Shown here piece after piece: positions 7,634 through 49,261 of a stretch of 64,000 nt of DNA. The stretch is from NCBI GenBank assembly GCA_030698625.1, contig JAUYMS010000040.1, positions 21,499 through 85,498 on the forward strand, in the 5' to 3' direction. Every line of letters starts with the position of its first letter. Within the stretch, counting starts at the first letter, position 1. A program made the translations under genes and the position numbers. This DNA is from Candidatus Omnitrophota bacterium. Its GTDB lineage: Bacteria; Omnitrophota; Omnitrophia; Omnitrophales; Aquincolibacteriaceae. The notes under the pieces were generated by a model. The model was given only the letters and a program-made list of their open reading frames with translations, ran no database searches and was not told the DNA's origin.

Positions 7634-7636
7634 ATT

Positions 7637-15773: not shown

Positions 15774-15838
15774 TCGTGATTTTTCGCTAGACTATACGAA
15801 ATCTTCAGTTATGGCGACTGGAACCGATATAAAGAGAT

Positions 15839-17377: not shown

Positions 17378-17388
17378 AATCTGCGACC

Positions 17389-29737: not shown

Positions 29738-29843
29738 ACTGGTTTAAGAAATTTTGGTGCGGCGTTAAAAAATGGTTTTCACAGCGCAAAGAAAAGCAAG
29801 CGGGGGATGTCCCTGACGACATCTACCCGTTATTCTAAAAATC

Positions 29844-31843: not shown

Positions 31844-31845
31844 AC

Positions 31846-33543: not shown

Positions 33544-33546
33544 ACG

Positions 33547-35900: not shown

Positions 35901-36535
35901 AACTCTTCCCCTGGCAAAAGAATAACATCGATCAGATCATCGATTTTCATCACCGCAATGACTCCGGATTCGCGCGGCATCATTTGGCACTTTACTCGGT
36001 AGTTTTGGGGCTCGAAACCAAAAGCGCATTTGAGTTTGGCTGCGGCCGTTCCACGCTTACGATACTTCGCGCCCTGCGTCAGACAGGGGGCAGGCTCATT
36101 TCCTGCGACCTGCGCGATCTTCCCGATACCGGTGTCGACGCAAACGATCTCTATCGCTTCAGGGATATATGGGATTACCTGCAGGGGGATTCGCTCGGGA
36201 TTGCTTCTGAGGTTGGGAATGAGATATTCGATTTCGTCTTACATGACGGCTCACACGAAGCGGATATCGTCCAGTCGGACCTCAGTAAGATCGTCCCCCG
36301 AATGATGAGAAACAGCATCCTCTTGCTTCATGACACCGACCACCCGACCCAGGACTATGGCCTGCAAGCTGCCGCAGAAAGAGCCCTGGCACCGTATCGC
36401 CACAGCCTGGTAACCCTTCCCTACGGTTATGGCCTCACCATCGTCAGGATCGATGAGGACTTCGGGCATGGGACAGTTCGGGTTGAGTGGAGAAAAACAA
36501 AATCCGGGAAGCCGAAGGTCAAGAAGAGAAAATGA
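35897..36535 (+). CDS. Class I SAM methyltransferase (CmcI/Methyltransf_24-like)
   Basis: FEFGCGRST...FVLHDGSHE...LLLHDTD. Confidence 0.6.
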   Translation: MKLFPWQKNNIDQIIDFHHRNDSGFARHHLALYSVVLGLETKSAFEFGCGRSTLTILRALRQTGGRLISCDLRDLPDTGVDANDLYRFRDIWDYLQGDSLGIASEVGNEIFDFVLHDGSHEADIVQSDLSKIVPRMMRNSILLLHDTDHPTQDYGLQAAAERALAPYRHSLVTLPYGYGLTIVRIDEDFGHGTVRVEWRKTKSGKPKVKKRK

Positions 36536-38181
36536 AATTATCAATCGTCATCACGACATTCAATAGGGCTGAGTGCCTCAAGGCAAATCTCCTTGAATTT
36601 GCTAAGCAGACGGACACTGACTTCGAAGTGATCGTGGCTATGGATGGGTGCACCGACAAAACCGAGGACATGCTCTCAGAACTCCTGCCGGCTCTGCCTT
36701 ATGAACTCCGTTGGGTCGATACGGGCGAAACCGGCAAATACTGCTTGGGCAAAGCAAGAAACATGGGCATCCTGGAATCAACCGGCGAAGCGGTCGTCAT
36801 CCTCGACGATGACACCTTTCCCACTCCCGAATTTGTCCAAGAGCACAAGAGGACCGCTCGCCCCAGGACGATTACATGCGGCTATCGGAATTCTCATGAT
36901 CCGGCCGATGAGCTTCACGCCAAGATGAAAAGTCAAATGCAAAAACTCAAGCAGGGGAAACTCAACCGCATCAAAGGGGTAGAGAACAATGCCTGCATGT
37001 ATCGTGAGGATTGGATCGGATGCGGGCTCTTTTCTGAGAGAATCGAGGGCTACGGCGGCGTCGGGCAGGAGTTCATGCCCCGCCTAAGGTTTCAGGGATT
37101 CGGTTACCAATTTAACCCAAAGGCCATGGCCTATCATCACCGTGAATACGAAGGCGTCAACGGCCTGACGCGTGACAAAAAAAGCGAACAGCACACCGCA
37201 AATCTGGCGCAGCTCAGAAAATTCTTCCCCAAAGATCAGGGCGATGCCGTGCCGCAGAGCTTTGATGATCTCGCTGCCGTTCCTACTGCAAAGCTCTCCG
37301 GAATCCAGAAAACAATTGAAGAGATGAGATATTCCTACGCATTGCACCATGCCCGGTCCAGGAGGGCGTTGATCCTAGCTCCGTACGGACAGGAGTACTT
37401 CGATGACGGGCTAAAACACCTCACGGCATCCCGGGCGGTACGTGCGCTCGTGGCCCAAGGGAAACTGGACGTGCTGATATTCACCTCGAAACGCACGAAG
37501 ATTTCCCGTATTCCCGAGGGCTATCAAGTGCTTGCCATCTCAGACGTGCCGCGCTGGCCGCCTGCTCCCGCGCTGCAGAATCGCTTCATCAAATGGGCTA
37601 TCCCTTTACTTTTTCCTAATATAGGCTCAAGCATTTATCTCGACACCGATTTGCGGATCACCCACAGCAGCGAAAGATTGTCACAAATCTTTGCGACAAT
37701 CGAGGATAAGAAATTCATCCTATCTTTACACCCGCGTTCGGGGTGGCAGACGGAATATGAAAAAATAGTCCGCAAGGGGGCACATGATAATCGCGAGCTG
37801 CTCGAACAACAGCGGCGCTTATTTCTCGCCCTCGGTATCCCGGAGCAGATCGCTTTTTACCAATGCAATTTTATCGGCCGCCGCCACGATGCTCTGGAGA
37901 ACAACCCCTTTTATCTAAATGTCTTACAGCAATTAAACTGCTACAGCGGACGGGACCAGTTAGCGGTCGCTTACGCGCTCTTCGTCACAGATATTAAGCC
38001 GTACAGTCTCCCGGTTGGGGAAGATCTATTCGCTTATGCACCGAAACTGCAAAACAATATGCCATGTTTCGTTGATGAAAAGGCGTGGCCTCGATTCAAA
38101 CAGCTTGCGCTCAAGGACGAGAGGCGGAAGAAATCTCCCGTTCAAAGGATACTCTCATGGTCACGAAATCCGGATTGGTAA
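36532..38181 (+). CDS. GT2 glycosyltransferase with ~300-aa C-terminal domain of unknown function
   Basis: MKLSIVITTFNRAE...VAMDGCTDKT...ILDDD. ATG at 36532 overlaps the upstream stop (ATGA). The C-terminal half has no motif I recognise. Confidence 0.65.
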   Translation: MKLSIVITTFNRAECLKANLLEFAKQTDTDFEVIVAMDGCTDKTEDMLSELLPALPYELRWVDTGETGKYCLGKARNMGILESTGEAVVILDDDTFPTPEFVQEHKRTARPRTITCGYRNSHDPADELHAKMKSQMQKLKQGKLNRIKGVENNACMYREDWIGCGLFSERIEGYGGVGQEFMPRLRFQGFGYQFNPKAMAYHHREYEGVNGLTRDKKSEQHTANLAQLRKFFPKDQGDAVPQSFDDLAAVPTAKLSGIQKTIEEMRYSYALHHARSRRALILAPYGQEYFDDGLKHLTASRAVRALVAQGKLDVLIFTSKRTKISRIPEGYQVLAISDVPRWPPAPALQNRFIKWAIPLLFPNIGSSIYLDTDLRITHSSERLSQIFATIEDKKFILSLHPRSGWQTEYEKIVRKGAHDNRELLEQQRRLFLALGIPEQIAFYQCNFIGRRHDALENNPFYLNVLQQLNCYSGRDQLAVAYALFVTDIKPYSLPVGEDLFAYAPKLQNNMPCFVDEKAWPRFKQLALKDERRKKSPVQRILSWSRNPDW

Positions 38182-38957
38182 TGAAAACAGCGAGATTACG
38201 GTCCGCTCTGGCGGACATTCGCGGAAGCGTCAGTTACAGAGTGCACCTAGCGAGCATACGCATGAAGAGTCTCTGTGCTCCTCGCGGGAAAAAAGAAGAT
38301 TTCAATTTTGACCGGCTGCTTTCGCGTCTCTGGGATAATTACAGCACAGACGACCACCCCAAAGACCGCAGAATGCGTATATTGCGCGACAAACGGGTCG
38401 CCGGCATGGGGGTTGAGAATATCCGTTATCTGACCAATGAAATGGTTAGACGGGTTGCGCAGAATGGAGTGTATCTCGAGGTCGGGACCTACCGCGGAAG
38501 CAGCCTTCTGAGTGCCGCACTCTTCAATGACACTACGCGGTGTATCGGTATTGATAATTTTTCCCAATTTAACAAAAGAGAGAAAAACGAGTATGCCTTG
38601 AAGAGAAATTTGGCAAAATTCGGGAGGCTCCGAAATATTGAGTTCTACAACAAAGATTACCGGGAAGCGCTGCGCGAACTCTTCGAGAGAGAGCCGCATT
38701 TGAAAGTGAACGTCTATTATTATGATGGGAAACACTCTTACCGCGACCAACTCGAGGGGCTTGAAGTCATGCTGCCGCATTACGCCGAGCGGTGCATAAT
38801 TCTGGTTGATGACATCAACTGGCCGGATCCTGAGCGCGCATCCGAAGATTTTCTAAGGAAGAACCCGTCATTTCGAACGCTTCTAAAAATAAAGACATCC
38901 GCGACTCCCGCGCCGAACTGGTGGAACGGATTTCAGGTGATAGCCCGTGGCATTTAA
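38181..38957 (+). CDS. Class I SAM methyltransferase (Methyltransf_24-like)
   Basis: YLEVGTYRGSS...YYYDGKHSY...LVDDINW. ATG at 38181 overlaps the upstream stop (TAATG). The track start at 38085 lies inside the upstream gene. Confidence 0.6.
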   Translation: MKTARLRSALADIRGSVSYRVHLASIRMKSLCAPRGKKEDFNFDRLLSRLWDNYSTDDHPKDRRMRILRDKRVAGMGVENIRYLTNEMVRRVAQNGVYLEVGTYRGSSLLSAALFNDTTRCIGIDNFSQFNKREKNEYALKRNLAKFGRLRNIEFYNKDYREALRELFEREPHLKVNVYYYDGKHSYRDQLEGLEVMLPHYAERCIILVDDINWPDPERASEDFLRKNPSFRTLLKIKTSATPAPNWWNGFQVIARGI

Positions 38958-39699
38958 CGTTAAAGTAACTATTCAAGAAACTCTCGTCGAACTTTGCCGG
39001 GGTATCAGCACGGGCGCTAACCGGATTGTTGCGCGCTGGGAACCCGCACGCAAACAGCGAGAGCGAAAGCGCCTGGCCGAGCAGCTTAAGGGACAGAGTC
39101 GAATTCATGTTGGCTGCGGAGAAATTTTTGTCCCGGGTTGGTTGAATATCGGACTACTGCCGAGTGATCGCTTTCCATACGCCGAGATGGTGCGGGCCCA
39201 AAACGGTGCCTTGGCACTTAGTTTCGACGTCTCAGACCTTTTGCCCATCGAGAACGATTCGCTTCATTACATCTATGCCAGCCATTTCATTGAGCATTTA
39301 AAATTGGAGACAGGAATCACATTTCTCAAGCGTTGCTACAAAATGCTGAACGCCGACGGGGTTCTACGACTTACGTTCCCAGACATGGAATTGTGGGTGA
39401 ATAAATACTACGAGAACGATGCCGCTTTTTTTGAGGGGTACAAGTCCATCTACCTCACGCCGAAGCGGGCGCGTCATGCCCAAACTAAGGGGCAGATCTT
39501 CATGTCGCAGGTTCATGGCTTCGGACATCGGTGGAATTACGACTTTGATTCCATGCGGAATATTCTGGAGAAAATCGGCTTCAGTCATATTACACGCAAA
39601 GGTGTTTGGGAAAGTGAGCTCCCGGACATAGATCGACTCGAGCCGAAGGAAGCCGGACGCATCATGGAAACAGCCTATGTTGAGGCCCATAAGGTTTAA
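38947..39699 (+). CDS. Class I SAM methyltransferase (Methyltransf_11-like)
   Basis: IHVGCGEIFVPGW...IYASHFIEHL...LNADGVLRLTFP. GTG start. Confidence 0.6.
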   Translation: MAFNVKVTIQETLVELCRGISTGANRIVARWEPARKQRERKRLAEQLKGQSRIHVGCGEIFVPGWLNIGLLPSDRFPYAEMVRAQNGALALSFDVSDLLPIENDSLHYIYASHFIEHLKLETGITFLKRCYKMLNADGVLRLTFPDMELWVNKYYENDAAFFEGYKSIYLTPKRARHAQTKGQIFMSQVHGFGHRWNYDFDSMRNILEKIGFSHITRKGVWESELPDIDRLEPKEAGRIMETAYVEAHKV

Positions 39700-39701
39700 A
39701 T

Positions 39702-40538
39702 ATGGATAAACTTAGCGTTGTAATCACATGCTACAAACCGGGCGAAAAACTGGCGGAGGCTTTCGCCAGCTTGCGGGCACAAACGGATAATGACTTTGAG
39801 ATTATCATTGTCAATGACGCCTCGCCGAGTGAGGATCTTAATCAAGCTTGCCGGCAACTTGAGACGGATGAGGCCGTTGGCGTGATTTGGCGGAGAAAAA
39901 ACGGGGGCGCGGCCGCGGCCCGAAATGACGGCTGCCGAGCCATTGCCGGCAACATCTATATACCCCTGGACGCAGATGACGTATTACCGCCGGATGCCGT
40001 TGCTACCATTCGGCACACTTTTGACGAATGGCCCGCCGCTGACTTCGTGTTCGGCGATTATCTTTACCGTCCTGATGGAGGTGCCGAAAAAGTTATGAAT
40101 GCCGGGGCTATGTGCGGTAGTGACGGCTGGCTAAGACCGCAGTCGCTAGCCAAGAGATTTGGAATCTACGGGGGAAGCCCCTTCCGAAAAATCGCGTGGG
40201 AACGAGTCAGCGGCTATGATGAAAGCGTTCCGTCAGGACATGAAGACGTCGATTTCTGGCTGCGCATGGTCAACTCCGGAGCGCGGGGCCGGTACGTGAA
40301 CCATTTGCTCTATATCTGGCAGCGCTCAGAACGGGGGATGGGAAGTCTCGTCCCCAAGGCGAAAAAGATGCGCATCAAGTGGGTAAAGAACGCCCCGTTT
40401 TATGACCGCTACGCCCATCCGATCGGATGGAGAAAAAAGGTGATACGCGAGGCCCTCAAGGAAAGTGATTACGGCTTGGCGGTAAGACTTTTTTTCGGGC
40501 TCATTCTATCGAAATTGAAATTAAGGGAGAAGGTATGA
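39702..40538 (+). CDS. GT2 glycosyltransferase
   Basis: LSVVITCYKPGE...IIVNDAS...PLDADD (DxD). Confidence 0.7.
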   Translation: MDKLSVVITCYKPGEKLAEAFASLRAQTDNDFEIIIVNDASPSEDLNQACRQLETDEAVGVIWRRKNGGAAAARNDGCRAIAGNIYIPLDADDVLPPDAVATIRHTFDEWPAADFVFGDYLYRPDGGAEKVMNAGAMCGSDGWLRPQSLAKRFGIYGGSPFRKIAWERVSGYDESVPSGHEDVDFWLRMVNSGARGRYVNHLLYIWQRSERGMGSLVPKAKKMRIKWVKNAPFYDRYAHPIGWRKKVIREALKESDYGLAVRLFFGLILSKLKLREKV

Positions 40539-41509
40539 AATCTGTTGTTACAGGAGCCGGGGGTTTTGTCGGCCATCACCTCGTCAGCTATTTAAAGAAA
40601 AAGGGGCATGAAGTCATTGCAATCGACATCAAGGAGCCGGAGTTTGCCCGTTCGGAGGCTAGTAAGTTCATACTTCAGGATCTGCGCGAGCCCGTAAAGA
40701 AAATTCAGCCGCTTTTTGAGGGCGCTGATCAAGTGTGGGCCCTGGCTGCGGATATGGGGGGAATGGGCTTTATTTCTCAGAACCACGCCTATTGCATGAG
40801 CAATAACGTCACGATTAATATTCAGACCCTCGAGGCAGCTCGAAACGCCCGCGTAAAGCGCTATCTCTACACGTCAACAGCCTGCGTTTATCCGCATCAT
40901 CTGCAGTTGACTCCGGATGTGACACCCCTCGCCGAATACATGGCCTATCCGGCAGGACCGCAAGACGGGTATGGCTGGGAGAAACTCTACACGGAGAAAC
41001 TTTGCCAGTATTACCGACTCGAATACGGCCTGGAAACCCGTATTGTGCGATTTCACACCATGTACGGTCCGCTGGGCACCTGGACGGGCGGCAAAGAAAA
41101 ATCGCCGGCTGCGCTCTGTCGCAAAGTTGCCGAGGCTGTTCTCACCGGGGGCAATTCCATTGAGATATGGGGTGACGGCGAGCAGACGAGAACCTTTTGC
41201 TATGTGGACGACACACTTAAAGGCCTGGACGGCATTATGAATTCCGATTATTCCGACCCCATCAATTTGGGGCGTGACGAGATGGTGACCATTAATGAAT
41301 TGGCGGATGTCATTATGAAGGTGGCCGGCGTTAAGCTAAAGAAGACCTATGTGGAGGGCCCGCAGGGAGTTCGGGGGCGTAATTCGGACAACACTCTTTG
41401 CCGCGAGATTCTCGCTTGGAGTCCTGAAATCGATTTGGAAACGGGCCTTCGCCTGACGTATCCGTGGATCCTTAAAGAGGTTCGCCAAGCATTAGAAATT
41501 AAGAAATAA
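40535..41509 (+). CDS. GDP-mannose 3,5-epimerase-like SDR (tandem copy 1)
   Basis: TGAGGFVGHHL, then ADMGGMGFISQNHA...YTSTACVYP matches the GME signature (DMGGMGFIQSNHS...YASSACIYP), and YGWEK (YxxxK). Confidence 0.7.
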   Translation: MKSVVTGAGGFVGHHLVSYLKKKGHEVIAIDIKEPEFARSEASKFILQDLREPVKKIQPLFEGADQVWALAADMGGMGFISQNHAYCMSNNVTINIQTLEAARNARVKRYLYTSTACVYPHHLQLTPDVTPLAEYMAYPAGPQDGYGWEKLYTEKLCQYYRLEYGLETRIVRFHTMYGPLGTWTGGKEKSPAALCRKVAEAVLTGGNSIEIWGDGEQTRTFCYVDDTLKGLDGIMNSDYSDPINLGRDEMVTINELADVIMKVAGVKLKKTYVEGPQGVRGRNSDNTLCREILAWSPEIDLETGLRLTYPWILKEVRQALEIKK

Positions 41510-41523
41510 GGGAGGAGCGTTAC

Positions 41524-42498
41524 GTGAAATTTATCGTTACAGGCGCCGGTGGTTTTATTGGGCACCACCTTGTGAGCCACTTGAAAAAATCTGGCGCGGA
41601 AGTTATCGGCATCGACATCAAGCATCCCGAATTCGAGCAGTCAAAGGCCGACCGCTTTGAGATACAGGACCTGCGCGAACCCATAACGACATGGAAGCAT
41701 CTCTTTGAGGGCGTTGACGACGTTTGGGCACTCGCGGCAGACATGGGGGGCATGGGATTCATCTCTCAGAATCATGCCCAAATTATGACGAGTAATGTCA
41801 TGATTAACATCCACACGCTTGAGGCCGCCAAGCTGGCTAAAGTGAAGCGCTATCTCTACACATCCTCAGCCTGCGTGTACCCCACACACCTGCAGTCGAA
41901 AACAAATGTCAAGCCGCTAGCCGAGGATATGGCGTATCCCGCAGACCCTCAAGACGGTTACGGCTGGGAAAAAATCTACACCGAGAAAATGTGCCAGTAC
42001 TATCATGCGGAATACGCGCTGGATACACGTATCGTGCGATTTCACAATATCTACGGACCTGCGGGTACTTGGAGGGGCGGCCGTGAAAAGGCCCCCGCCG
42101 CCTTATGCCGGAAGGTTGCCGAGGCCATCGAGACCGGGACAGATGCCATCGAGATCTGGGGCGACGGAGAGCAAACGCGAACCTTCTGTTATATCGATGA
42201 CTGCGTAACGGGTCTTCAGAAAATCATGGATTCCGGATACAACGAGCCGCTCAATCTTGGCCGAGACGAGATGGTTTCCATCAATGAGCTTGCCGATGTC
42301 GTGGCAGAAGTCGCTGGAGTAAAACTAAAAAAAGTTCATGTGGACGGACCTCAGGGCGTTCGAGGAAGAAACTCGGACAACGCTTTATTTCAAAGACTCA
42401 TGGGTTGGAGCCCGGCAATTGATCTCAAAACCGGCATAGCCCAAACCTATCCTTGGATACAGCAACAGGTACGCATGGGGTCAAAGTCCCCCACTTGA
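41524..42498 (+). CDS. GDP-mannose 3,5-epimerase-like SDR (tandem copy 2)
   Basis: Same motifs as the upstream paralog (ADMGGMGFISQNHA, YGWEK). GTG start with RBS gggaggag. Confidence 0.7.
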   Translation: MKFIVTGAGGFIGHHLVSHLKKSGAEVIGIDIKHPEFEQSKADRFEIQDLREPITTWKHLFEGVDDVWALAADMGGMGFISQNHAQIMTSNVMINIHTLEAAKLAKVKRYLYTSSACVYPTHLQSKTNVKPLAEDMAYPADPQDGYGWEKIYTEKMCQYYHAEYALDTRIVRFHNIYGPAGTWRGGREKAPAALCRKVAEAIETGTDAIEIWGDGEQTRTFCYIDDCVTGLQKIMDSGYNEPLNLGRDEMVSINELADVVAEVAGVKLKKVHVDGPQGVRGRNSDNALFQRLMGWSPAIDLKTGIAQTYPWIQQQVRMGSKSPT

Positions 42499-42509
42499 TT
42501 TGGAACCCT

Positions 42510-43442
42510 ATGGAAAAAATACAAAATAACTTGAAGAACGCTGAGACGGCCAAATTCCAGCCGAATCTCTTTATCCTCGGGGCAGCCAAATGCGGCACCA
42601 CGACCCTGCATTTTTATCTCGACACCATGCCTGAAATTTGCATGTCCATGCCCAAGGAACCTCACTTTTTTGAAAAGGAATATGATAAGGGGATTACGTT
42701 CTATAGGGACAAGTATTTTGCGCATTGGAACGGGGAAGCCATCATTGGTGAGGCGCGCCACAGAAATCTCTTTCTGCCTTATGTCGCCGAGCGAATCTAC
42801 AGGACAAATCCACAGGCCAAGTTAGTGGCGATATTGCGAAACCCGGTAGCCCGTGCCTATTCTCACTGGTGGCACTTTTATTCGCGCGGACACACCAAGC
42901 TTTCTTTCAGCAAAACGATTCGGGCCAATCGGGAGCGTCTGGAAGCGAGACTCGAAATTCGGAGACCGGATGACTACTTCAAGAGGGGCCTGAAGCCGTA
43001 TGTGAACAAAGACACATGCATCGAATCGGGCTATTACTTTGAACAGATTCAACGCTACCGCGCCTATTTCTCGGACAGCCAAATTAAGCTTATCCTTTTT
43101 GAGGATCTGGTCCAAAACCCGCAGCAAGTATTGGCCGATCTGAGAGCGTTACTGGGGCTGGAACCAGAGAGCAAAATTATTTCGCCTCTCACGAACATGA
43201 ATCCTCACAAACTCAAGCAGGTTTCTCTGCCATTGCGTCGCATTCAGAAAAAGTTTCGCCTCCGGGAAATTCTTCCTGATTTCGCTTACGAGTATCTCAA
43301 GCATTTCTTTAAGCTAAGTCTACGGCGCCCGAGAATGCCCGGACATACGCATCGCTGGCTTATTCAGCATTATGAAGTTCACAACGAAATGCTTGCCAGC
43401 TACATGAATCGTGACTTATCACACTGGAACCGGATGTCATGA
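42510..43442 (+). CDS. Sulfotransferase (PAPS-dependent)
   Basis: 5'-PSB LGAAKCGTTTL and 3'-PB ILRNPVARAYSHW. ATG at 42510; the track start at 42453 overlaps the upstream gene. Confidence 0.7.
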   Translation: MEKIQNNLKNAETAKFQPNLFILGAAKCGTTTLHFYLDTMPEICMSMPKEPHFFEKEYDKGITFYRDKYFAHWNGEAIIGEARHRNLFLPYVAERIYRTNPQAKLVAILRNPVARAYSHWWHFYSRGHTKLSFSKTIRANRERLEARLEIRRPDDYFKRGLKPYVNKDTCIESGYYFEQIQRYRAYFSDSQIKLILFEDLVQNPQQVLADLRALLGLEPESKIISPLTNMNPHKLKQVSLPLRRIQKKFRLREILPDFAYEYLKHFFKLSLRRPRMPGHTHRWLIQHYEVHNEMLASYMNRDLSHWNRMS

Positions 43443-44422
43443 ACCCCGTCTACGTCTTCCTCCATCTTCGCAAAACCGCCGGCAGTACGCTAAAGTACCA
43501 TCTGAGAAAGAATTTCCGGCCCGGCGAAATCATTTTCATAAACCCCAAAAGTGATACGCATGTAAGCGTCTACTTTGAGGATTGGCAGAAAGAAATGACT
43601 CGGGAAGAGTTGGCCGCCTATCTCGGCGGGTTACCCCAAAATAAGAAGGATCGCCTCAGGATGATCTTCGGGCATAGGGTGTATTCAGGGATCCACGAAC
43701 CTCTGGGTCGTCCGGCACGATACATTACGTTTCTTCGTAATCCCGAAACCAGAACGCTTTCCCACTACAACTGGTATCTCGAAAAGAAGATCCGCCAAAA
43801 CGGGAGTAGCACAAAAGCGCGTTTGACCGATGATCACTTCCGCGCCTGGCTTCAAGCCCCTGAATCACCGGACAATTTCATGACTCGTGTCCTCATCGAA
43901 TCCTTTCAATCGAAGCCGTCCACGAAGAGAGAGCTTGCGTCCAACGACCTCGAAAGGGCTAAGACGCTGCTCAAGTCCTTCTATTTTGTAGGTATTACCG
44001 AACAGTATGACCGCGACGCGGCATTTCTCTACGAGCAATTCAGCATCATTCGTTTTTTTTCAAATCAAAAGATCTCAACTAAATATTACGTCCCTGAAGA
44101 TCGCGAGGCCGTCGCAAAACTGATTCGAGACAAGTGTTGGATCGACTGTGACCTTTATGCCTACGCCAATCATTTAAACCAACGCTTTCGAGAGGCAAAC
44201 AAAGAGTTTGCCCGCTGCGTCGGACAGGCGAGACGGGTCAAGCGCGTTGCCGCCAGAATGGGTACGGTCATGCGGTGTGCGGGTACTCTCAAACGACTGC
44301 CATACGCGGTCCTGCCGGAACGCACCAAGCGCCGAGAAGCCTATGATGAAATTTGTCAACAGATACGCGACGCCGTAAAGCGGGTGTTTTTTCGCAAGTT
44401 GGCCCGGAGGGAGTCACGGTAA
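43439..44422 (+). CDS. Sulfotransferase (PAPS-dependent), paralog of the ORF at 19693
   Basis: LHLRKTAGST...FLRNPETRTLSHY. Confidence 0.7.
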   Translation: MNPVYVFLHLRKTAGSTLKYHLRKNFRPGEIIFINPKSDTHVSVYFEDWQKEMTREELAAYLGGLPQNKKDRLRMIFGHRVYSGIHEPLGRPARYITFLRNPETRTLSHYNWYLEKKIRQNGSSTKARLTDDHFRAWLQAPESPDNFMTRVLIESFQSKPSTKRELASNDLERAKTLLKSFYFVGITEQYDRDAAFLYEQFSIIRFFSNQKISTKYYVPEDREAVAKLIRDKCWIDCDLYAYANHLNQRFREANKEFARCVGQARRVKRVAARMGTVMRCAGTLKRLPYAVLPERTKRREAYDEICQQIRDAVKRVFFRKLARRESR

Positions 44423-44425
44423 GTC

Positions 44426-45355
44426 ATGAAACCAACCGTGTTCATAACGGGGAAACGGGAATATTTGATCACCATGAAGGTATCCGAGTATTCCTTGAAG
44501 AGAAACTCGAAGCATCCTGAGAGTTTTGACGTTAGATTGCTCTACCTGCAGGACTTCCCTTATCTGACGTCTCGGCAAGGCCGGCGCTACAAGCGGGAGC
44601 CTGGCATTTTAAAATGGCACAATGAAGACCCGCAAGCCTTTACACTCCTGCGTTTCCTTCCGCCTCAGCTCATGAACTATGAAAACCGTGCCGTGGTTAT
44701 CGACCCCGACATTTTTGCCGTGGGTGATGTCTATTCGCTCTTAACACGTGACATGCGAGGTAAGGTCATTCTGTGCAAAAAAAAGGATTACACGAACAGC
44801 AAGAAGCCCAACCGTCGATCCCATTTTGCATCGAGTGTAATGCTTCTGGATTGCGCACACCTTAAACATTGGGAGTGGGAAAAGCAGCTCGATGCCATGT
44901 TTCGCATGGAGCGGCATTACAATAACTGGATGAATATGCGTTTAGAACCCGAGGAGACAATCGGCGCTCTCGAGGATGAGTGGAATCACTACGACACCCT
45001 AACGCCCGACACGAAACTCTTGCACAACACCAACCGCAGTACGCAGCCCTGGTTGACAGGTCTGCCCTACGACCGCCGTCTTAAGAAGCATGTTGAAAAG
45101 ATGTTTGGCGTCTTTCCTGCCGCGTGGAGAGAGGGGATATGCTCTCTTTTACGCGGTGAAGGTTACTTGCCATACGGCCGCCACGAACGCCATCCGGACG
45201 CAAATCAGGAAAAGCTATGGTTTTCTCTCCTTAAAGGCGCCCTTCGCGACGGCTTTATTAGTGAGTCTGATCTACGTAACGAGATCGAAAAAAAGCATGT
45301 CAGGTCTGACGCCTTGGCAATTCTCGAGACCGCGGAGGAACCTGCACTCGCATGA
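44426..45355 (+). CDS. Putative GT-A (GT8-related) glycosyltransferase
   Basis: VVIDPDIF (DxD-like), then LLHNTNRSTQPW resembling the GT8 HxxGxxKPW tail. Weak call. Confidence 0.35.
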   Translation: MKPTVFITGKREYLITMKVSEYSLKRNSKHPESFDVRLLYLQDFPYLTSRQGRRYKREPGILKWHNEDPQAFTLLRFLPPQLMNYENRAVVIDPDIFAVGDVYSLLTRDMRGKVILCKKKDYTNSKKPNRRSHFASSVMLLDCAHLKHWEWEKQLDAMFRMERHYNNWMNMRLEPEETIGALEDEWNHYDTLTPDTKLLHNTNRSTQPWLTGLPYDRRLKKHVEKMFGVFPAAWREGICSLLRGEGYLPYGRHERHPDANQEKLWFSLLKGALRDGFISESDLRNEIEKKHVRSDALAILETAEEPALA

Positions 45356-46209
45356 TTACATTCGTAATCTTTCATGTAGATAATACGGGTAAGCGCAAGA
45401 AAAAGGGTGGGGATCCGCGACGGATGATGTACCTGCTGTTTCGATCCGCCGAACTTCACCACCCCCATTGCCGTAAGGTCGTAATCTCCGACCTCCGCAC
45501 CGACCTATCCTATCTGGCACCGGATATTGAGATCAAACGCTATGACGTTGATCCGACACAAATAGCGCTGAGCCGTTGGAACTCGCGCAATCAATTCCTT
45601 GCCGATCAGGATTTTTCATCTCATTTTGTCTTGCTTGATTACGATATTCTCGTGAACGCAAATCTCCTGCCCCTTTTCGATCAACCTTTTGACGTCGCAT
45701 TAACTTACCGCCATCGCACCGAAGCGGACAAAAGGCCAAAACTCAAGATTAACGGCGGCATCTTGTTTCTAAAGGCAAACAGAAAAGCGGCATCCATGTC
45801 ATTTTTGAACCGCGTTTTTACTACCTACAAAGAAAAATTCATTTCCCGTCCCGATTGGTGGGGAGGACAGTACTCAATGAACGAGGTTGTCGGCCATGCG
45901 AACGTGCCTGAGTCAGGGACCCGCACTGTTAAAACCGGAGATTCTACGATCCTGCTTCTGCCTTGCGACCAGTATAATTTTTCGCCCTCTAACCGCTATC
46001 GTTCGATCGCTGCGGAGTTTCAAACCCAGAAAATCCTCCATTTCAAGGCAAGATGTAGGCGACTCATGAATTTATATTGGGATATTTACTTTACAAGACG
46101 CATCACAAAGAATCCAGGGGTTGCACTGCAATCCCTTTTAAAACGATTGCACTTGCTGTGGCTCATCATCTATGAGCGGGCATTTCCCAAAAGGTCCATA
46201 AAATCATGA
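45352..46209 (+). CDS. Putative GT-A (GT8-related) glycosyltransferase
   Basis: FDVALTYRHRT...INGGILFLK aligns with the N-terminal domain of the ORF at 34281 (FDVAYTYFDRT...INLGVVLVK). Confidence 0.4.
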   Translation: MITFVIFHVDNTGKRKKKGGDPRRMMYLLFRSAELHHPHCRKVVISDLRTDLSYLAPDIEIKRYDVDPTQIALSRWNSRNQFLADQDFSSHFVLLDYDILVNANLLPLFDQPFDVALTYRHRTEADKRPKLKINGGILFLKANRKAASMSFLNRVFTTYKEKFISRPDWWGGQYSMNEVVGHANVPESGTRTVKTGDSTILLLPCDQYNFSPSNRYRSIAAEFQTQKILHFKARCRRLMNLYWDIYFTRRITKNPGVALQSLLKRLHLLWLIIYERAFPKRSIKS

Positions 46210-47342
46210 AAACGCTGCTGAGACTTGACGGAAAGCGTCTCGCCCTGAATCTTACACTCTTAGCGACGGTATTAGTCATGATCGGCTCCGTTCTAGAGGT
46301 CGGCGTATTCCGCATGAATATGCACCGTATCCCCATGAGGTTTCACGGCCATATCGACCGCTACTTCTACGCGTTTGCTCAGAGTTCTAAGGCCGTGGTT
46401 ATGCCAAAGAATTATATTGCTATTGCGGGAGATTCCTACGCTCAGGGAGAGGGGGACTGGCGGATCGAGGCGAACGTCTGGAAAAACCCGCCATTTGCCT
46501 CACAGCACGTTCTCCAGGAACTCACAGGCCAGGACGTCATTAATAGCGGCGCGGGCGGCGGAGACAGCCTTCGAACGCTCGCTGTACGCCCGGTTGCCCA
46601 ATACCGTTTTCTAAACTCGACCCTTCTTTATCGTATCAAGAAGCCTGACATCATCTTATCTTACGTCTATGAGGGAGGGCTAAACCGCAGCCTAGCCTTC
46701 CTTGAGCAGAACTATTTACCACGGTACGATCCTGCGCGAATCTACGACCGGGCCTATTTCCGGCAATTTATCGATGATATCGTGACGCAAAGCATCCCGA
46801 CGGCGATCGCACGGCGTTTTGTTTTGCCTCGATTTCTCTTACGCCTGTGGAACAATTTTCGTGTCCGGCTCGCAAAGCTTTTCCCGCCCATATCGCCCTT
46901 TTATGGTAAACGTACGCGGACAGACTCGGGGGCAAAGGAGGTTGCTAAGTCTTTCCCTGATTACAATAGTGAAGAGGGCCTCAAGCTTTCGTTGTACGTT
47001 ATTCAGCAATCGCTCACCTATCTGACGGATTTTTTTCCAGAAGCGCGTCACTACATCGTTTATATTCCCGATATCCATACCTCCTATGAAATGCCGGTTG
47101 ACGGGACGGCTCGGGACAATCTTCTGCCCGAGTTCCTACGGAGCGACGAAATCAGCGATGCTCTAAAAATAATCTCTGTAGCCGTCGGTTCAACTTATAT
47201 TGATTCACGCCCTGCCATCAGGGCTGCTTCGCAGGCAGGCCGCGTCCACGGCGTGATTGATAAGGCACACTTTAACCGCAAGGGTTACACCGTACTTGCG
47301 GAGACAATACTACCTTACCTGGAAGGGGATAAAACCCAATGA
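46206..47342 (+). CDS. SGNH/GDSL-like hydrolase or acyltransferase with N-terminal TM helix
   Basis: N-terminal hydrophobic segment LALNLTLLATVLVMIGSVL. IAIAGDSYAQGEG (GDS block I). Paralog of the ORF at 29844. Confidence 0.55.
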   Translation: MKTLLRLDGKRLALNLTLLATVLVMIGSVLEVGVFRMNMHRIPMRFHGHIDRYFYAFAQSSKAVVMPKNYIAIAGDSYAQGEGDWRIEANVWKNPPFASQHVLQELTGQDVINSGAGGGDSLRTLAVRPVAQYRFLNSTLLYRIKKPDIILSYVYEGGLNRSLAFLEQNYLPRYDPARIYDRAYFRQFIDDIVTQSIPTAIARRFVLPRFLLRLWNNFRVRLAKLFPPISPFYGKRTRTDSGAKEVAKSFPDYNSEEGLKLSLYVIQQSLTYLTDFFPEARHYIVYIPDIHTSYEMPVDGTARDNLLPEFLRSDEISDALKIISVAVGSTYIDSRPAIRAASQAGRVHGVIDKAHFNRKGYTVLAETILPYLEGDKTQ

Positions 47343-49261
47343 AATTTGATGCAAAGAAACTTAAAGTAAATCCTCAGCAGGTCTACGAGCATATGCAAAA
47401 GGAAAGCGTCCCGTGTAATATCTGCGGGGCTGAGAACCTCATCGATGTCCTCGATCGCGACCGATACGGGATGGGCATTAAAACAGTAATTTGCGAATCC
47501 TGTGGTTTTCTCTTCACGAGCCCGCGGCCGGTTCCCGCCGCGATGAGCGAATTCTACCGAACGACTTACCGGAAATTTTATACGGGAACGAAGAACCCCA
47601 AAAAGGAGTACGAGGATAAGCTCCATGTGCAAAAGAGGGAATGGCTGTACGAGCGCGTTAAGGGGCATATCGAGAAGCGCGGAAAGAAAAACCCGAAAAT
47701 CCTTGATGTCGGATGCGGTGCAGGTGCACTGCTTAACGTCTTCCGCAGAAATCTTCCCGACAGTGAACTCCATGGTGTGGAACCGACCCCTGAGTTTGCG
47801 CGTTATGCCCAGGAAAGGAATGGCGCCACGGTCTATAATGGAGGTGTCGCCGAGTTCTTCCATGAGCACCGGGGACTGCAAGGCTCGTTCGATGTCATTA
47901 CGCTTTATCACGTCCTTGAGCATCTTTATAACCCTGCGGATTTTCTCATCACCCTCAGAGATTTTCTTGTGCCCGGAGGCCTTTTGCTCATCCAGGTCCC
48001 GAATGCACTTTCTCCCCACTGGCAGAACGCCATTCAAATGTTCCACATCGCTCATATCAGCCACTTTAGCCTCTCGACACTCCGGCATGCCTACCAAGTA
48101 GCCGGTTTTCGCGTCCTTTACGAATTCGATGGGCCGCATCCCGGCAATCCGCGCGCGTTAACCCTTTTGGGCGAAAAGACGGACTCGCTATTACCGAAAG
48201 CAGACATCCCGCGGTTGACTGCGGACCGGGTTCAATCAATCACCAAATCAATTCGGGAAAGCGCCGCACCTCTCGAAGGTGTCAGTTTTGCCCGCCAATT
48301 TCTTCTCACTTATAAACGAAAGGGCGTCACGGAGGCTTTACGCGGACTCGCAGGTTACGCCAAACACAAAGTGCGGAAGTTCGCCATGAAGATGGAAGAA
48401 CTTTTTGGAAATTTCAAGCACCGCGGCATCAAGTACGGATTCGAAAAGCTTTGTTTCTATTTCGCGCAAAACGCCCTAAAAATCGCAAGGCTCGCGAAAA
48501 AGGCAGTCGTGTTCACCTACGGTTCGGCTCGAATTTCTGCAGCTTGGTCTTTACACCATCTTACCAATGACGCTCCGCTCCGAAAACTCATCCGGGGTAG
48601 GCGTGTCCTCATCCTTGGTTCAGGCCCGTCAGCGAAAGAGCTCGGCGATATCCCTGATGACGTGCTTATTTTTACCTGCAACGCAGGATTGCGCCTCTTG
48701 CGCGAGCGCGGCATAGACCGTCCGGTAGATCTCTACCTATGCCGCAAGAAGGCCATGACCGCCGATTATCCGGATATTGAGGGCCTCCTTGCCGAACAGA
48801 AAGCGAACGTCTACGTCATGGACGATGCCCGTTATGTCAAAACCAAAAAATCCTTAAAAGGGGCTTATGAGATCTTACTCCCGGACCATCAGAAAGATAA
48901 TTTTTACCTCAATAAACTCATGAAGCCGGATTCGATGCGCTTTATCCGCGAAGATGAGGTAACCTGGACCTCGGCAGGCATAAGGCTGCTCCAGTATGCC
49001 CTCTACTTCAAAGCAAGCGGCATCTTCATGATTGGGATCGACCTCAGCAACAATGGGTATTTCTGGGGCCCTGACTATGCCCACAGATTACCGACTGAGA
49101 AGAAAGGGCATAAGCACTCCATCGATTTCAATTTTCTGCGCTTCATGGCAAGGCGACATCCCAATCTATACTCGCTGTCGCCCTCGAGCCCTGTCTCGAG
49201 CCATCTCCCGTGCAGAAACTTCGATATGACAAGCCCGACCCTGGCAGGCTCGATTCTATGA
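47339..49261 (+). CDS. Fusion: Zn-ribbon + class I SAM methyltransferase (N-terminal) and CstII/GT42- or DUF115-like glycosyltransferase domain (C-terminal); paralog of the ORF at 23669
   Basis: CNICGA...CESCG, ILDVGCGAGAL...LYHVLEHL. C-terminus: RVLILGSGPSA...LIFTCNAG...IFMIGIDLSNNGYFWG...NLYSLS. Confidence 0.6.
   Translation: MKFDAKKLKVNPQQVYEHMQKESVPCNICGAENLIDVLDRDRYGMGIKTVICESCGFLFTSPRPVPAAMSEFYRTTYRKFYTGTKNPKKEYEDKLHVQKREWLYERVKGHIEKRGKKNPKILDVGCGAGALLNVFRRNLPDSELHGVEPTPEFARYAQERNGATVYNGGVAEFFHEHRGLQGSFDVITLYHVLEHLYNPADFLITLRDFLVPGGLLLIQVPNALSPHWQNAIQMFHIAHISHFSLSTLRHAYQVAGFRVLYEFDGPHPGNPRALTLLGEKTDSLLPKADIPRLTADRVQSITKSIRESAAPLEGVSFARQFLLTYKRKGVTEALRGLAGYAKHKVRKFAMKMEELFGNFKHRGIKYGFEKLCFYFAQNALKIARLAKKAVVFTYGSARISAAWSLHHLTNDAPLRKLIRGRRVLILGSGPSAKELGDIPDDVLIFTCNAGLRLLRERGIDRPVDLYLCRKKAMTADYPDIEGLLAEQKANVYVMDDARYVKTKKSLKGAYEILLPDHQKDNFYLNKLMKPDSMRFIREDEVTWTSAGIRLLQYALYFKASGIFMIGIDLSNNGYFWGPDYAHRLPTEKKGHKHSIDFNFLRFMARRHPNLYSLSPSSPVSSHLPCRNFDMTSPTLAGSIL

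What the first reader, a model, noticed from the sequence alone, without database searches (positions are those of the whole stretch)
42510..44422. Four PAPS-type sulfotransferases in the same locus (tandem pair here, plus 19693 and 61840)
All four carry clear 5'-PSB (xKxGTT/S) and 3'-PB (RxPxxRxxS) motifs. Sulfated bacterial surface polysaccharides are uncommon (rhizobial Nod factors and KPS, mycobacterial sulfolipids, some cyanobacterial and marine EPS). Combined sulfation, methylation and phosphonylation of one glycan would be highly unusual.
Basis: partly seen in the sequence, partly recalled or inferred. Interest (0 to 1): 0.6.

Follow-up and report, generated by a model that had tools for sequence, protein, structure and literature searches.

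The report
Four sulfotransferase genes, O-antigen locus
Four genuine sulfate-adding enzymes lie in a very large cell-surface sugar-chain gene cluster of an uncultured Omnitrophota bacterium; the enzyme types are common and already annotated, but one sits in a conserved exporter-linked module whose role, possibly a sulfate "cap" on the chain, has never been tested.

Summary
The window has exactly four sulfotransferase (ST) ORFs: ST-A 42510-43442, ST-B 43439-44422, ST-C 19693-20427 and ST-D 61852-62670. All four pass Pfam's curated cut-offs. They fall into two lineages. ST-A and ST-D resemble heparan-sulfate 3-OST/NST. ST-B and ST-C resemble heparan-sulfate 2-OST/6-OST. An AlphaFold model of ST-B (pLDDT 86) matches 2-OST and 6-OST.

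The source is a Candidatus Omnitrophota MAG, and NCBI already names all four proteins sulfotransferases. The locus is an ABC-transporter (Wzm/Wzt with a cap-binding domain) O-antigen-type cluster with a WaaL-like ligase, 13 methyltransferase-domain proteins and a phosphonate module.

These ST families are abundant, and clusters with several STs are common (21 of 80 related loci). The most interesting result is a conserved wzm-wzt-ST-DegT module in Flavobacteriales, Hyphobacterium and this MAG, plus a natural ST::Wzt-ATPase fusion. Both tie sulfation to ABC export.

Verdict: new members of a known kind, modest interest.

The parts
42510..43442 (+). ST-A, 310 aa, Sulfotransfer_1/3 type (HS 3-OST/NST-like); NCBI MDP3920796.1
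   Evidence: Pfam PF00685 55.5 bits. PDB 3RNL E=2e-28 and HS 3-OST-3 E=6e-13, with KEPHFF aligned to EPHFF. K27, E50, R110, P112, R115 and S118 are conserved in 115-120 of 120 homologues.
43439..44422 (+). ST-B, 327 aa, Sulfotransfer_2 type (HS 2-OST/6-OST-like) with a basic C-terminal tail (residues 255-327); NCBI MDP3920797.1
   Evidence: PF03567 23.5 bits. Family profile against 5T03 E=3.6e-25 and 4NDZ E=1e-15. AF2 pLDDT 86.3, with 5T03 and 4NDZ as top Foldseek matches. Invariant H9, H79, R100, S108. ATGA overlap with ST-A.
19693..20427 (+). ST-C, 244 aa, paralogue of ST-B (35% identity) and last gene of the phosphonate/GT2/UDP-sugar-dehydrogenase operon; NCBI MDP3920775.1
   Evidence: PF03567 34.9 bits. 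BLASTP against ST-B E=1.7e-48. Starts 1 nt after the dehydrogenase stop codon.
61852..62670 (+). ST-D, 272 aa (ORF opens at 61840), Sulfotransfer_1/3 type with P-loop QRSGTS, immediately downstream of wzt
   Evidence: PF00685 55.5 bits. HS 3-OST-1 E=9e-19. The gene call at 61852 matches the public record. Conserved wzm-wzt-ST-DegT synteny.
59675..60478 (+). Wzm, ABC-2 permease
   Evidence: PF01061; gene call from L007.
60489..61838 (+). Wzt, ATPase with a C-terminal carbohydrate-binding (Wzt_C) domain
   Evidence: PF00005 and PF14524 (E=1e-21). NBD matches A. aeolicus Wzt 8DKU at E=5e-71.
62718..63416 (+). Class-I SAM methyltransferase between ST-D and DegT. It is not conserved in the syntenic loci and is an alternative cap enzyme.
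   Evidence: Pfam; gene call; 0 of 80 related loci have a homologue.
63406..64000 (+). DegT-family aminotransferase, cut by the window end; conserved partner of the wzt-ST module
   Evidence: L007 gene table; synteny.
57863..59077 (+). WaaL-like O-antigen ligase (Wzy_C domain)
   Evidence: PF04932 E=2.6e-19.
22169..51617 (+). 29-kb same-strand array of 26 genes (GT2, GT8, GT15 and GT1-like transferases, 10 methyltransferase-domain proteins, LicD at 33547-34284, three epimerases) that contains ST-A and ST-B
   Evidence: Pfam. All intergenic gaps are 106 nt or less, and most genes overlap.
11785..19691 (+). Phosphonate operon upstream of ST-C: PEP mutase fused to a PF12804 nucleotidyltransferase, phosphonopyruvate decarboxylase, Fe-alcohol dehydrogenase, B12-radical-SAM enzyme, GT2, UDP-sugar 6-dehydrogenase
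   Evidence: Pfam.

Best explanation
The four genes encode soluble, cytoplasmic, PAPS-dependent carbohydrate O-sulfotransferases of two old lineages.
- ST-A and ST-D belong to the HS 3-OST/NST-like lineage, which uses a catalytic Glu (KE..FF motif).
- ST-B and ST-C belong to the HS 2-OST/6-OST-like lineage, which uses a catalytic His (GH motif).

The proposed mechanism is as follows. The enzymes transfer sulfate from PAPS to hydroxyls of an undecaprenyl-diphosphate-linked glycan while it is built at the cytoplasmic face of the inner membrane. Cytoplasmic methyltransferases and a LicD-type phosphonate transferase act at the same stage. Wzm/Wzt then exports the finished chain, and the WaaL-like ligase joins it to lipid A-core.

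The STs belong to three gene modules:
- ST-C closes the phosphonate/uronic-acid operon.
- ST-A and ST-B are translationally coupled inside the 29-kb GT/methyltransferase array.
- ST-D belongs to a conserved wzm-wzt-ST-DegT export module.

Shown here: family membership, conserved catalytic and PAPS-binding residues, lack of membrane segments, operon structure and the conserved synteny. Inferred: the acceptor sugars, whether the modules act on one chain or several, the PAPS supply, and activity itself.
For: Membership and active-site evidence:
- Pfam hits are above the curated cut-offs.
- The proteins are homologous to PAP-bound carbohydrate STs.
- ST-A E50, R110, P112 and R115 are invariant in 120 of 120 homologues.
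- In the ST-B/ST-C family, H9, H79, R100, P102 and S108 are invariant. H79 aligns with the second His of the 'HGH' segment of HS 2-OST.
- The AF2 model of ST-B has 6-OST and 2-OST as its best structural matches, at probability 1.0.
- No hydrophobic segment is present (maximum KD19 below 0.9).

Context evidence:
- Wzm, Wzt with CBD, WaaL-like ligase, an MsbA-like exporter, about a dozen GTs, 13 methyltransferase-domain proteins, PepM/Ppd/Fe-ADH and LicD.
- A 1053-aa multi-domain GT lies downstream.
- Homologues of each ST type lie in polysaccharide loci in every case examined.
- ST-A's closest homologue (49% identity) sits with Methyltransf_24 genes, a Sulfotransfer_2 gene and eukaryote-like GTs, as in this window.
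- P0132 is a natural fusion of an ST-B-like domain to a Wzt-type NBD.
Against: - No PAPS-synthesis gene (sat/cysDN, cysC) or cysQ was seen in the window or the reachable flanks. The published Vibrio example regards in-cluster cysNDC as a hallmark.
- No initiating phosphoglycosyltransferase is present in the window.
- ST-B's own Pfam score is marginal.
- ST-D has Arg at the catalytic P-loop Lys position.
- No biochemical data exist for any close relative. NCBIfam has no specific model for these proteins.
- In A. salmonicida, a conserved ST-domain gene next to wzt has no sulfate in the published O-antigen structure.
Confidence: 0.7

Rival explanations
1. Chain-terminator reading. ST-D, and elsewhere ST-B-like enzymes, add a sulfate to the non-reducing terminal sugar. 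This stops polymerisation, and the Wzt carbohydrate-binding domain recognises the sulfate cap to license export. It would be a sulfate analogue of the methyl, methyl-phosphate and Kdo caps of ABC-dependent O-antigens.
For: - ST-D lies directly after wzt, in the slot WbdD occupies in the E. coli O9a cluster (my recollection of that gene order, not re-verified here).
- The window's Wzt has a CBD, and CBD-bearing Wzt proteins require a cap (PMC9445017).
- The wzm-wzt-ST-DegT order is conserved in L008, L009 and 11 of 80 genome loci. In those loci the ST is the only modifying enzyme conserved next to wzt.
- All 10 Wzt proteins tested from such loci have a C-terminal extension of about 200 aa, detectable as Wzt_C in 4 of them.
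- An ST::Wzt-NBD fusion exists.
- A. salmonicida has wzt-ST-wbbB.
Against: - Sulfate is not among the known caps.
- A methyltransferase follows ST-D and could supply a conventional methyl cap. The closest solved Wzt, from A. aeolicus, reads a methyl cap.
- The CBDs of the syntenic loci show no similarity to the window's CBD even at E<=10, so there is no ST-CBD co-variation.
- ST-D has no coiled-coil ruler domain.
- In the fusion, the ST is N-terminal and does not replace the CBD.
- No sulfate was found in the A. salmonicida O-antigen.
Confidence: 0.18
2. Several products rather than one. The three ST-containing modules decorate different glycoconjugates, for example a phosphonoglycan, a heavily methylated polymer and the Wzm/Wzt-exported O-polysaccharide. 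On this reading no single glycan carries sulfate, methyl and phosphonate together.
For: - The wzm-wzt-ST-DegT module and the ST-A/Methyltransf_24 module recur separately in other organisms.
- An IS200-like gene and a 750-bp gap separate the ST-C operon from the 29-kb array.
- An oppositely oriented LPS-core block (51523-56687) separates the array from wzm-wzt.
- The number of GTs is large for one repeat unit.
Against: - Only one polysaccharide exporter (Wzm/Wzt) and one ligase are present in 64 kb plus 10 kb of flank.
- LicD, which would be needed to attach the phosphonate, lies inside the methyltransferase array and not in the phosphonate operon. This links the two modules.
Confidence: 0.35
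3. ST-D is an N-sulfotransferase that converts the amino group introduced by the adjacent DegT aminotransferase into a sulfamate, as the NST domain of NDST does on glucosamine.
For: - ST and DegT are adjacent in at least 13 loci.
- ST-D matches the NST domain 1NST at E=4e-12.
Against: - ST-D matches the O-sulfotransferases 3-OST-1 and 3-OST-5 better (E about 1e-18).
- A hexapeptide acyltransferase that could N-acylate the amine lies just upstream of wzm.
- To my knowledge, sulfamates are not known in bacterial O-antigens.
Confidence: 0.08
4. The genes are present but do nothing useful, either because the organism cannot make PAPS or because some copies are inactive paralogues (for example ST-D with Arg in the P-loop).
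For: - No PAPS genes were seen in the roughly 75 kb examined.
- Many Omnitrophota are reported to have reduced, host-dependent lifestyles (my recollection, not verified here).
Against: - All four ORFs are intact and keep every family-invariant residue.
- Arg in the P-loop is a frequent natural variant, in 22 of 80 genes.
- ST-A and ST-B are translationally coupled within an operon.
Confidence: 0.07

Closest known systems
Heparan-sulfate 3-O-sulfotransferases and the NDST N-sulfotransferase domain; bacterial structural-genomics ST 3RNL (Alicyclobacillus)
   Same: ST-A and ST-D share the fold family, the P-loop, the 3'-PB R-x-P-x-x-R-x-x-S motif and the (K)E-x-x-F-F segment. That segment holds the catalytic Glu of the 3-OSTs. 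The role of that Glu is from my knowledge of the published structures.
   Different: The window proteins are bacterial and cytoplasmic, with no Golgi anchor, and their acceptor is unknown. ST-D has Arg in place of the P-loop Lys. Identity to the animal enzymes is low.
Heparan-sulfate 2-O- and 6-O-sulfotransferases (PF03567)
   Same: The ST-B/ST-C family profile matches both (E=1e-15 and 3.6e-25). The invariant GH histidine aligns with the 2-OST 'HGH' segment. The AF2 model superposes on 4NDZ with TM 0.55-0.63.
   Different: Sequence identity is only about 18%. ST-B has an extra basic C-terminal helical tail (22 K/R against 7 D/E). The genes sit in a bacterial polysaccharide operon.
Sulfated CPS/O-antigen cluster of Vibrio sp. 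KMM 8419 (PMC11641403)
   Same: It is a large polysaccharide locus (80 genes) with three sulfotransferase genes, ABC-transporter export, and a proposed cytoplasmic sulfation step before export.
   Different: The Vibrio cluster carries its own cysNDC copies and its product is chemically proven. Here there are no PAPS genes in the locus and no chemistry. The window also has phosphonate genes and many more methyltransferases.
Rhizobial polysaccharide and Nod-factor sulfotransferases (LpsS, KpsS, NodH, NoeE)
   Same: They are bacterial PAPS-dependent sulfation of LPS, K-antigen or oligosaccharide. NoeE acts on a methylated fucose. All of this is from my own knowledge.
   Different: No significant sequence relationship was found. 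The only NCBIfam hit is NoeE at E=0.05, 12 bits against a cut-off of 500.
WbdD-type O-antigen chain terminators of ABC-dependent pathways (PMC3482155, PMC9445017)
   Same: The gene sits immediately after wzm-wzt. The partner Wzt carries a cap-binding domain. The modification would be a small anionic or methyl group made by cytoplasmic enzymes.
   Different: The enzyme class differs (sulfotransferase rather than kinase/methyltransferase). ST-D has no coiled-coil ruler. Sulfate is not a documented cap.
Aeromonas salmonicida wb cluster ORF19 (PMC4483657)
   Same: A sulfotransferase-domain ORF lies directly downstream of wzt in an ABC-2-dependent O-antigen cluster and is conserved among strains.
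   Different: That ORF is 216 aa and its function is unassigned. The authors found no sulfate in the known O-antigen structure. Its homology to ST-D was not tested here.

Membership tests
PAPS-dependent sulfotransferase superfamily | Score above the curated Pfam threshold for PF00685, PF13469 or PF03567 | tested here: met
   All four pass. ST-B passes only marginally (23.5 bits against 22).
PAPS-dependent sulfotransferase superfamily | 5'-phosphosulfate-binding P-loop with the catalytic Lys | tested here: met
   KCGTT, KTAGST and KTAGTT in ST-A, ST-B and ST-C. ST-D has RSGTS (Arg), a variant found in 22 of 80 relatives.
PAPS-dependent sulfotransferase superfamily | 3'-phosphate-binding motif R-x-P-x-x-R-x-x-S | tested here: met
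   Present in all four. Invariant in family alignments.
PAPS-dependent sulfotransferase superfamily | Catalytic base (Glu in 3-OST/NST-like enzymes, His in 2-OST/6-OST-like enzymes) | tested here: met
   ST-A E50 is conserved in 120 of 120 homologues. The equivalent Glu of ST-D (E32 in the 272-aa numbering) is invariant in A2. ST-B H79 and ST-C H68 are invariant and align to the 2-OST 'HGH' segment. The catalytic role of these residues is taken from the literature on the animal enzymes, from memory.
PAPS-dependent sulfotransferase superfamily | Sulfotransferase fold | tested here: met
   ST-B AF2 model has pLDDT 86.3. All seven Foldseek matches at E<=0.001 are HS 6-OST or 2-OST chains, and nearly all weaker matches are also PAPS sulfotransferases. 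ST-A and ST-D rest on sequence homology to solved structures only.
PAPS-dependent sulfotransferase superfamily | PAPS donor available (ATP sulfurylase and APS kinase in the genome) | not testable with these tools
   None is present in the window or the reachable flanks. The rest of the 135-kb contig and the MAG could not be fetched.
PAPS-dependent sulfotransferase superfamily | Measured sulfotransfer activity and a defined acceptor | not testable with these tools
   No characterised close homologue exists. NCBIfam has no specific model.
ABC-transporter-dependent O-polysaccharide pathway | Wzm permease and Wzt ATPase | tested here: met
   PF01061 and PF00005. Wzt NBD matches A. aeolicus Wzt at E=5e-71.
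ABC-transporter-dependent O-polysaccharide pathway | Wzt C-terminal carbohydrate-binding domain (cap-dependent subtype) | tested here: met
   PF14524 at E=1e-21, 77.7 bits.
ABC-transporter-dependent O-polysaccharide pathway | O-antigen ligase and cytoplasmic polymerising GTs | tested here: met
   Wzy_C/WaaL-like protein at 57863-59077. A 1053-aa GT2-GT2-GT4 protein lies in the flank. No Wzx or Wzy-type polymerase pair was seen.
ABC-transporter-dependent O-polysaccharide pathway | Initiating phosphoglycosyltransferase (WecA or WbaP type) | tested here: not met
   No PF00953 or PF02397 protein is present in the window or flank. It may be encoded elsewhere, as wecA is in E. coli (my own knowledge).
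O-antigen chain terminator (WbdD/WbbB-like role) | Encoded next to wzm-wzt together with a CBD-bearing Wzt | tested here: met
   ST-D starts 2-14 nt after wzt, depending on the start codon used. The synteny is conserved.
O-antigen chain terminator (WbdD/WbbB-like role) | Coiled-coil ruler or membrane-anchoring extension on the terminator | tested here: not met
   ST-D is a bare 272-aa catalytic domain. Only ST-B and some of its relatives have C-terminal helical extensions.
O-antigen chain terminator (WbdD/WbbB-like role) | Modification confined to the non-reducing end and recognised by the CBD | not testable with these tools
   This needs chemistry and binding assays. The indirect test, CBD similarity across syntenic loci, was negative.

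The most novel reading that the evidence does not exclude
Sulfation is a previously unrecognised way of capping ABC-transporter-dependent O-polysaccharides. In the conserved wzm-wzt-ST-DegT module (Omnitrophota, Flavobacteriales, Hyphobacterium) and in ST::Wzt-ATPase fusions, the sulfotransferase would put a sulfate on the terminal sugar. That would end polymerisation, and the Wzt carbohydrate-binding domain would read it to license export.
Probability: 0.15. Interest if true: 0.7.

Novelty: new member of a known kind. Interest (0 to 1): 0.33.

Why it matters
If the enzymes are active, this uncultured Omnitrophota lineage displays an anionic, sulfated surface glycan that is also heavily O-methylated and probably phosphonylated. 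That would bear on phage and host recognition, on adhesion, and on the fate of sulfated and phosphonylated organic matter in the environment. It is also one more sign that sulfated bacterial glycans are far commoner genetically than the few solved structures suggest.

The more useful product of this work is a testable lead. A wzm-wzt-sulfotransferase-aminotransferase module is conserved across phyla and is present in cultured strains (Winogradskyella sediminis DSM 28134, Ulvibacter antarcticus DSM 23424, Hyphobacterium sp. CCMP332). In those strains one can test directly whether sulfate decorates or caps an O-antigen. That question cannot be answered in the MAG itself.

Tried and rejected
1. 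**Fifth sulfotransferase.** I searched all 390 stop-to-stop segments with two family HMMs and found none.
2. **PAPS genes.**
   - None is present in the window's Pfam annotation.
   - Flanks were reachable only through short Logan contigs. The right flank of about 10 kb and the left flank of about 1.5 kb contain none.
   - Two look-ups failed because my start codons differed from the public gene calls.
   - The NCBI 135-kb contig and the rest of the MAG could not be fetched.
   - Literature searches on Omnitrophota with sulfotransferase or sulfate assimilation gave nothing relevant.
3. **ST1-type plus ST2-type pairing in L003.** I first read L003 as showing the same pairing as ST-A/ST-B. BLAST showed that its 'Sulfotransfer_1 (weak)' gene is really ST-B-like, so I dropped that reading. 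ST1-type and ST2-type genes do co-occur in L090 and L049, but L090's Sulfotransfer_2 gene is not detectably ST-B-like.
4. **ST-CBD co-variation.** I tested whether Wzt CBDs co-vary with the ST across syntenic loci. There was no similarity even at E<=10.
5. **Methyltransferase after ST-D.** I tested whether it belongs to the conserved module. It has no homologue in any of the 80 loci.
6. **NCBIfam.** The only hit was NoeE at E=0.05, which I rejected as insignificant.
7. **Glycomyces phosphonoglycan paper.** PMC3993330 is not held in the library, so the precedent for methylated phosphonoglycans rests on my memory and on its citation in PMC8942020.
Full report
**1. What is there**

The window contains exactly four sulfotransferase-like ORFs.
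- ST-A is at 42510-43442 and ST-B at 43439-44422. They overlap by 4 nt (ATGA), which suggests translational coupling.
- ST-C is at 19693-20427.
- ST-D lies in the ORF that opens at 61840. The public gene call starts at 61852.

All four pass Pfam's curated thresholds.
- ST-A and ST-D hit PF00685 (55.5 bits each) and PF13469.
- ST-C hits PF03567 at 34.9 bits.
- ST-B hits PF03567 at 23.5 bits against a cut-off of 22, which is marginal.

Profile searches of every stop-to-stop segment of the window with two family HMMs found only these four.

The proteins form two pairs.
- ST-B and ST-C are 35% identical (E=1.7e-48).
- ST-A and ST-D are 24% identical (E=1.4e-16).
- Across the pairs, only the 3'-PB region is alignable.

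**2. Are they real PAPS-type enzymes?**

*ST-A.* It matches the solved bacterial sulfotransferase 3RNL (E=2e-28) and heparan-sulfate 3-OST-3 (E=6e-13). Its PKEPHFF segment aligns on the EPHFF segment of 3-OST-3. In 120 homologues, E50, R110, P112 and R115 are invariant, and K27 is Lys in 115 and Arg in 4.

*ST-D.* It matches 3-OST-1 at E=9e-19 and the NST domain at E=4e-12. In its family alignment the corresponding Glu and the 3'-PB Arg/Pro/Arg/Ser are invariant.

More than 90% of its close family has Lys. Among 80 more distant genomic relatives, 22 have Arg. I treat it as a tolerated variant.

*ST-B and ST-C.*
- An 18-sequence family profile matches HS 6-OST (E=3.6e-25) and HS 2-OST (E=1e-15).
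- The family-invariant residues are H9, G15, H79, R100, P102 and S108 in ST-B numbering.
- H79 aligns with the second His of the 'HGH' segment of 2-OST. From my knowledge of that enzyme, that His is the catalytic base.
- An AlphaFold2 model of ST-B is confident (pLDDT 86.3, pTM 0.81).
- All seven of its Foldseek matches at E<=0.001 are HS 6-OST or 2-OST chains, at probability 1.0. Nearly all weaker matches are also PAPS sulfotransferases.

None of the four proteins has a hydrophobic segment, so all are predicted to be cytoplasmic.

**3. Provenance and prior annotation**

The sequences are identical to proteins of a Candidatus Omnitrophota MAG on a 135,039-bp NCBI contig. The same sequence is also assembled from run SRR13727534.

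NCBI already names these proteins.
- ST-A (MDP3920796.1) is named 'sulfotransferase'.
- ST-B (MDP3920797.1) and ST-C (MDP3920775.1) are named 'sulfotransferase family 2 domain-containing protein'.
- ST-D is named 'sulfotransferase domain-containing protein'.

The identification is therefore not new.

**4. Context**

Pfam annotation of about 50 ORFs shows an O-antigen-type locus of the ABC-transporter class.
- Wzm is at 59675-60478.
- Wzt is at 60489-61838 and carries a Wzt_C carbohydrate-binding domain (E=1e-21). Its NBD matches the A. aeolicus O-antigen transporter at E=5e-71.
- A WaaL-like ligase is at 57863-59077.
- An MsbA-like exporter and core-type GTs lie on the minus strand at 51.5-56.7 kb.

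The locus continues past the window. After ST-D come a methyltransferase, a DegT aminotransferase, a 1053-aa GT2-GT2-GT4 protein, an AsnB-like amidotransferase, another methyltransferase, a GT2, a GFO/IDH oxidoreductase and an epimerase.

ST-A and ST-B lie inside a 29-kb array of 26 same-strand genes (22169-51617) whose gaps are all 106 nt or less. The array includes GT2, GT8, GT15 and GT1-like transferases, ten methyltransferase-domain proteins, LicD and three epimerases.

ST-C is the last gene of an operon that encodes the following:
- PEP mutase fused to a PF12804 nucleotidyltransferase;
- phosphonopyruvate decarboxylase;
- an Fe-alcohol dehydrogenase;
- a B12-radical-SAM enzyme;
- a GT2;
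- a UDP-sugar 6-dehydrogenase.

The gene-level claim of sulfation, methylation and phosphonylation in one neighbourhood is therefore correct. The window holds 13 class-I methyltransferase-domain proteins and three B12-radical-SAM enzymes.

**5. How unusual is it?**

- ST-B has 3,023 relatives at E<=1e-3, and 536 at E<=1e-10, among 1.84 billion 50%-identity representatives.
- A single peptide pattern from the ST-D family found at least 557 confirmed loci in species-representative genomes. They span Bacteroidota, Actinomycetota, Chloroflexota, Verrucomicrobiota, Proteobacteria, CPR and archaea.
- Within ±8 kb of those genes, 21 of 80 loci hold two or more STs and 4 hold three or four.
[quoted passage not shown] That cluster, unlike this window, carries its own cysNDC (PMC11641403).
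- Phosphonoglycan loci with Ppm-PF12804 fusions and LicD-like transferases are a documented common pattern (PMC6697681 and PMC8942020).
- ST-A's nearest homologue (49% identity) sits among Methyltransf_24 genes, a Sulfotransfer_2 gene and eukaryote-like GT families. The sulfation-plus-methylation module therefore recurs.

**6. The most informative new result**

The two closest ST-D homologues have the same gene order. P0141 (40% identity) lies on a JGI contig, and P0149 (36% identity) lies in Hyphobacterium sp. CCMP332. In both, the order is wzm, wzt, one or two ST genes, then DegT.

Among the 80 best genomic relatives, 11 keep this order. All 11 are among the closer ones and most are Flavobacteriales. 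They include Winogradskyella sediminis DSM 28134 and Ulvibacter antarcticus DSM 23424. The distant actinomycete relatives lack it.

The window's methyltransferase between ST-D and DegT is not part of the conserved core; it has no homologue in any of the 80 loci.

All ten Wzt proteins tested from these loci carry a C-terminal extension of about 200 aa. It is recognisable as Wzt_C in four of them, two above threshold.

Independently, an ST-B-like domain is fused in one continuous 527-aa ORF to a Wzt-type NBD.
- The ST domain is 31% identical to ST-B (E=5e-40), and the NBD is 34% identical to the window's Wzt (E=3.5e-48).
- The fusion lies next to wzm and a paralogous ST.

A. salmonicida also has an ST-domain ORF directly after wzt, and its authors could not explain it (PMC4483657).

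Taken together, these findings tie sulfotransferases functionally to Wzm/Wzt export.

**7. Mechanism**

Best-supported reading (confidence about 0.7): the four enzymes are cytoplasmic, PAPS-dependent O-sulfotransferases. They decorate the lipid-linked glycan before Wzm/Wzt export and WaaL ligation.

More novel reading (about 0.15-0.2): the Wzt-adjacent ST makes a terminal sulfate cap that the CBD reads.

For the cap reading:
- the gene position;
- the CBD;
- the conserved synteny;
- the fusion.

Against the cap reading:
- The known caps are methyl, methyl-phosphate and Kdo (PMC9445017).
- A methyltransferase next to ST-D could supply a conventional methyl cap.
- ST-D has no ruler domain.
- The CBDs of the syntenic loci share no detectable similarity with the window's CBD.
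- The A. salmonicida O-antigen shows no sulfate.

Whether one chain carries all three modifications is open.
- For one chain: a single exporter and ligase, and LicD embedded in the methyltransferase array.
- For several products: the modules recur independently elsewhere, and a transposase-like gene and an oppositely oriented core block separate them here.

**8. What could not be done**

PAPS synthesis genes were not found in the roughly 75 kb examined. No activity, acceptor or product chemistry can be inferred beyond the family level.

**9. Verdict**

- The enzymes are new members of known, abundant and already annotated families.
- Interest is modest. It is raised somewhat by the conserved exporter-linked sulfotransferase module, which can be tested in cultured bacteria.

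Noticed in passing
window 11785-17377, with 33547-34284, 4613-5479(-), 7637-9622 and 10059-11684(-): The phosphonate module has the same enzyme set as the early fosfomycin pathway: a PEP mutase-nucleotidyltransferase fusion, Ppd, an Fe-alcohol dehydrogenase and a B12-radical-SAM enzyme, comparable to Fom1/Fom2/FomC/Fom3. A LicD transferase lies 16 kb away. Two further B12-rSAM enzymes and a 2OG-Fe oxygenase are nearby. This suggests a glycan-linked hydroxyalkylphosphonate, possibly C-methylated, rather than 2-AEP, because no aminotransferase lies next to Ppd.
   Followed up: partly
L003 8005-9588 (protein P0132) and 7043-8008: A natural fusion of an ST-B-like sulfotransferase (N-terminal) with a Wzt-type ABC ATPase (C-terminal). 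It is preceded by a recently duplicated ST paralogue with an identical N-terminus, and by wzm.
   Followed up: yes
proteins P0177 (622 aa), P0178 (957 aa), P0182 (1250 aa): ST-B relatives with two, three or four matched stretches in one polypeptide, which may be multi-sulfotransferase proteins.
   Followed up: no
window 21178-22164 and the gap 20428-21177: An IS200-like Y1 transposase domain fused to a DnaA-C-type HTH, preceded by about 750 bp of non-coding DNA. It interrupts the otherwise continuous plus-strand glycan array between ST-C and the methyltransferase block.
   Followed up: no
window 40535-41509 and 41524-42498: Tandem NAD-dependent epimerase/dehydratase paralogues that are 71% identical, immediately upstream of ST-A. 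Other duplicated pairs: TylF-like methyltransferases at 22169 and 22867 (49% identical), and methyltransferase + MptE-like proteins at 23600 and 47339 (36% identical).
   Followed up: partly
window 31846-33543 and 49210-50763; L090: Eukaryote-type GT families fused to Methyltransf_24 domains: GT15 (alpha-1,2-mannosyltransferase family) + MT, and GT8 + MT. ST-A's closest homologue lies among GT17, GT6 and PLOD-type GTs with the same methyltransferase family. This may be a recurring kind of 'methylated, sulfated glycan' locus.
   Followed up: partly
window 55-4629; L002 1507-6621: A very large ORF with no Pfam hit. It is 1524 aa within the window and at least 1704 aa on the Logan contig, running off its end.
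   Followed up: no
L007 2358-2867, 6598-7743, 10885-12735, 14695-15732 (window 59166-59675 and beyond 63406); window 18342-19691: A hexapeptide acyltransferase, a DegT aminotransferase, a GFO/IDH oxidoreductase, an AsnB-like amidotransferase and a UDP-sugar dehydrogenase together resemble the WbpA/B/E/D-type route to 2,3-diacetamido-uronic acids or their amides (from memory). This hints at the sugar that ST-D's module builds.
   Followed up: no
L003 11982-13442, L006 6894-8312, window 15839-17377: B12-binding radical-SAM enzymes recur within a few kb of ST-B-type sulfotransferases in three unrelated polysaccharide loci.
   Followed up: no
window 52569-53642 (-): A strong hit to PF06258 'Mitochondrial fission ELM1' (E=1.6e-53) beside the MsbA-like exporter. 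It is probably a bacterial core glycosyltransferase-like protein rather than anything related to fission.
   Followed up: no
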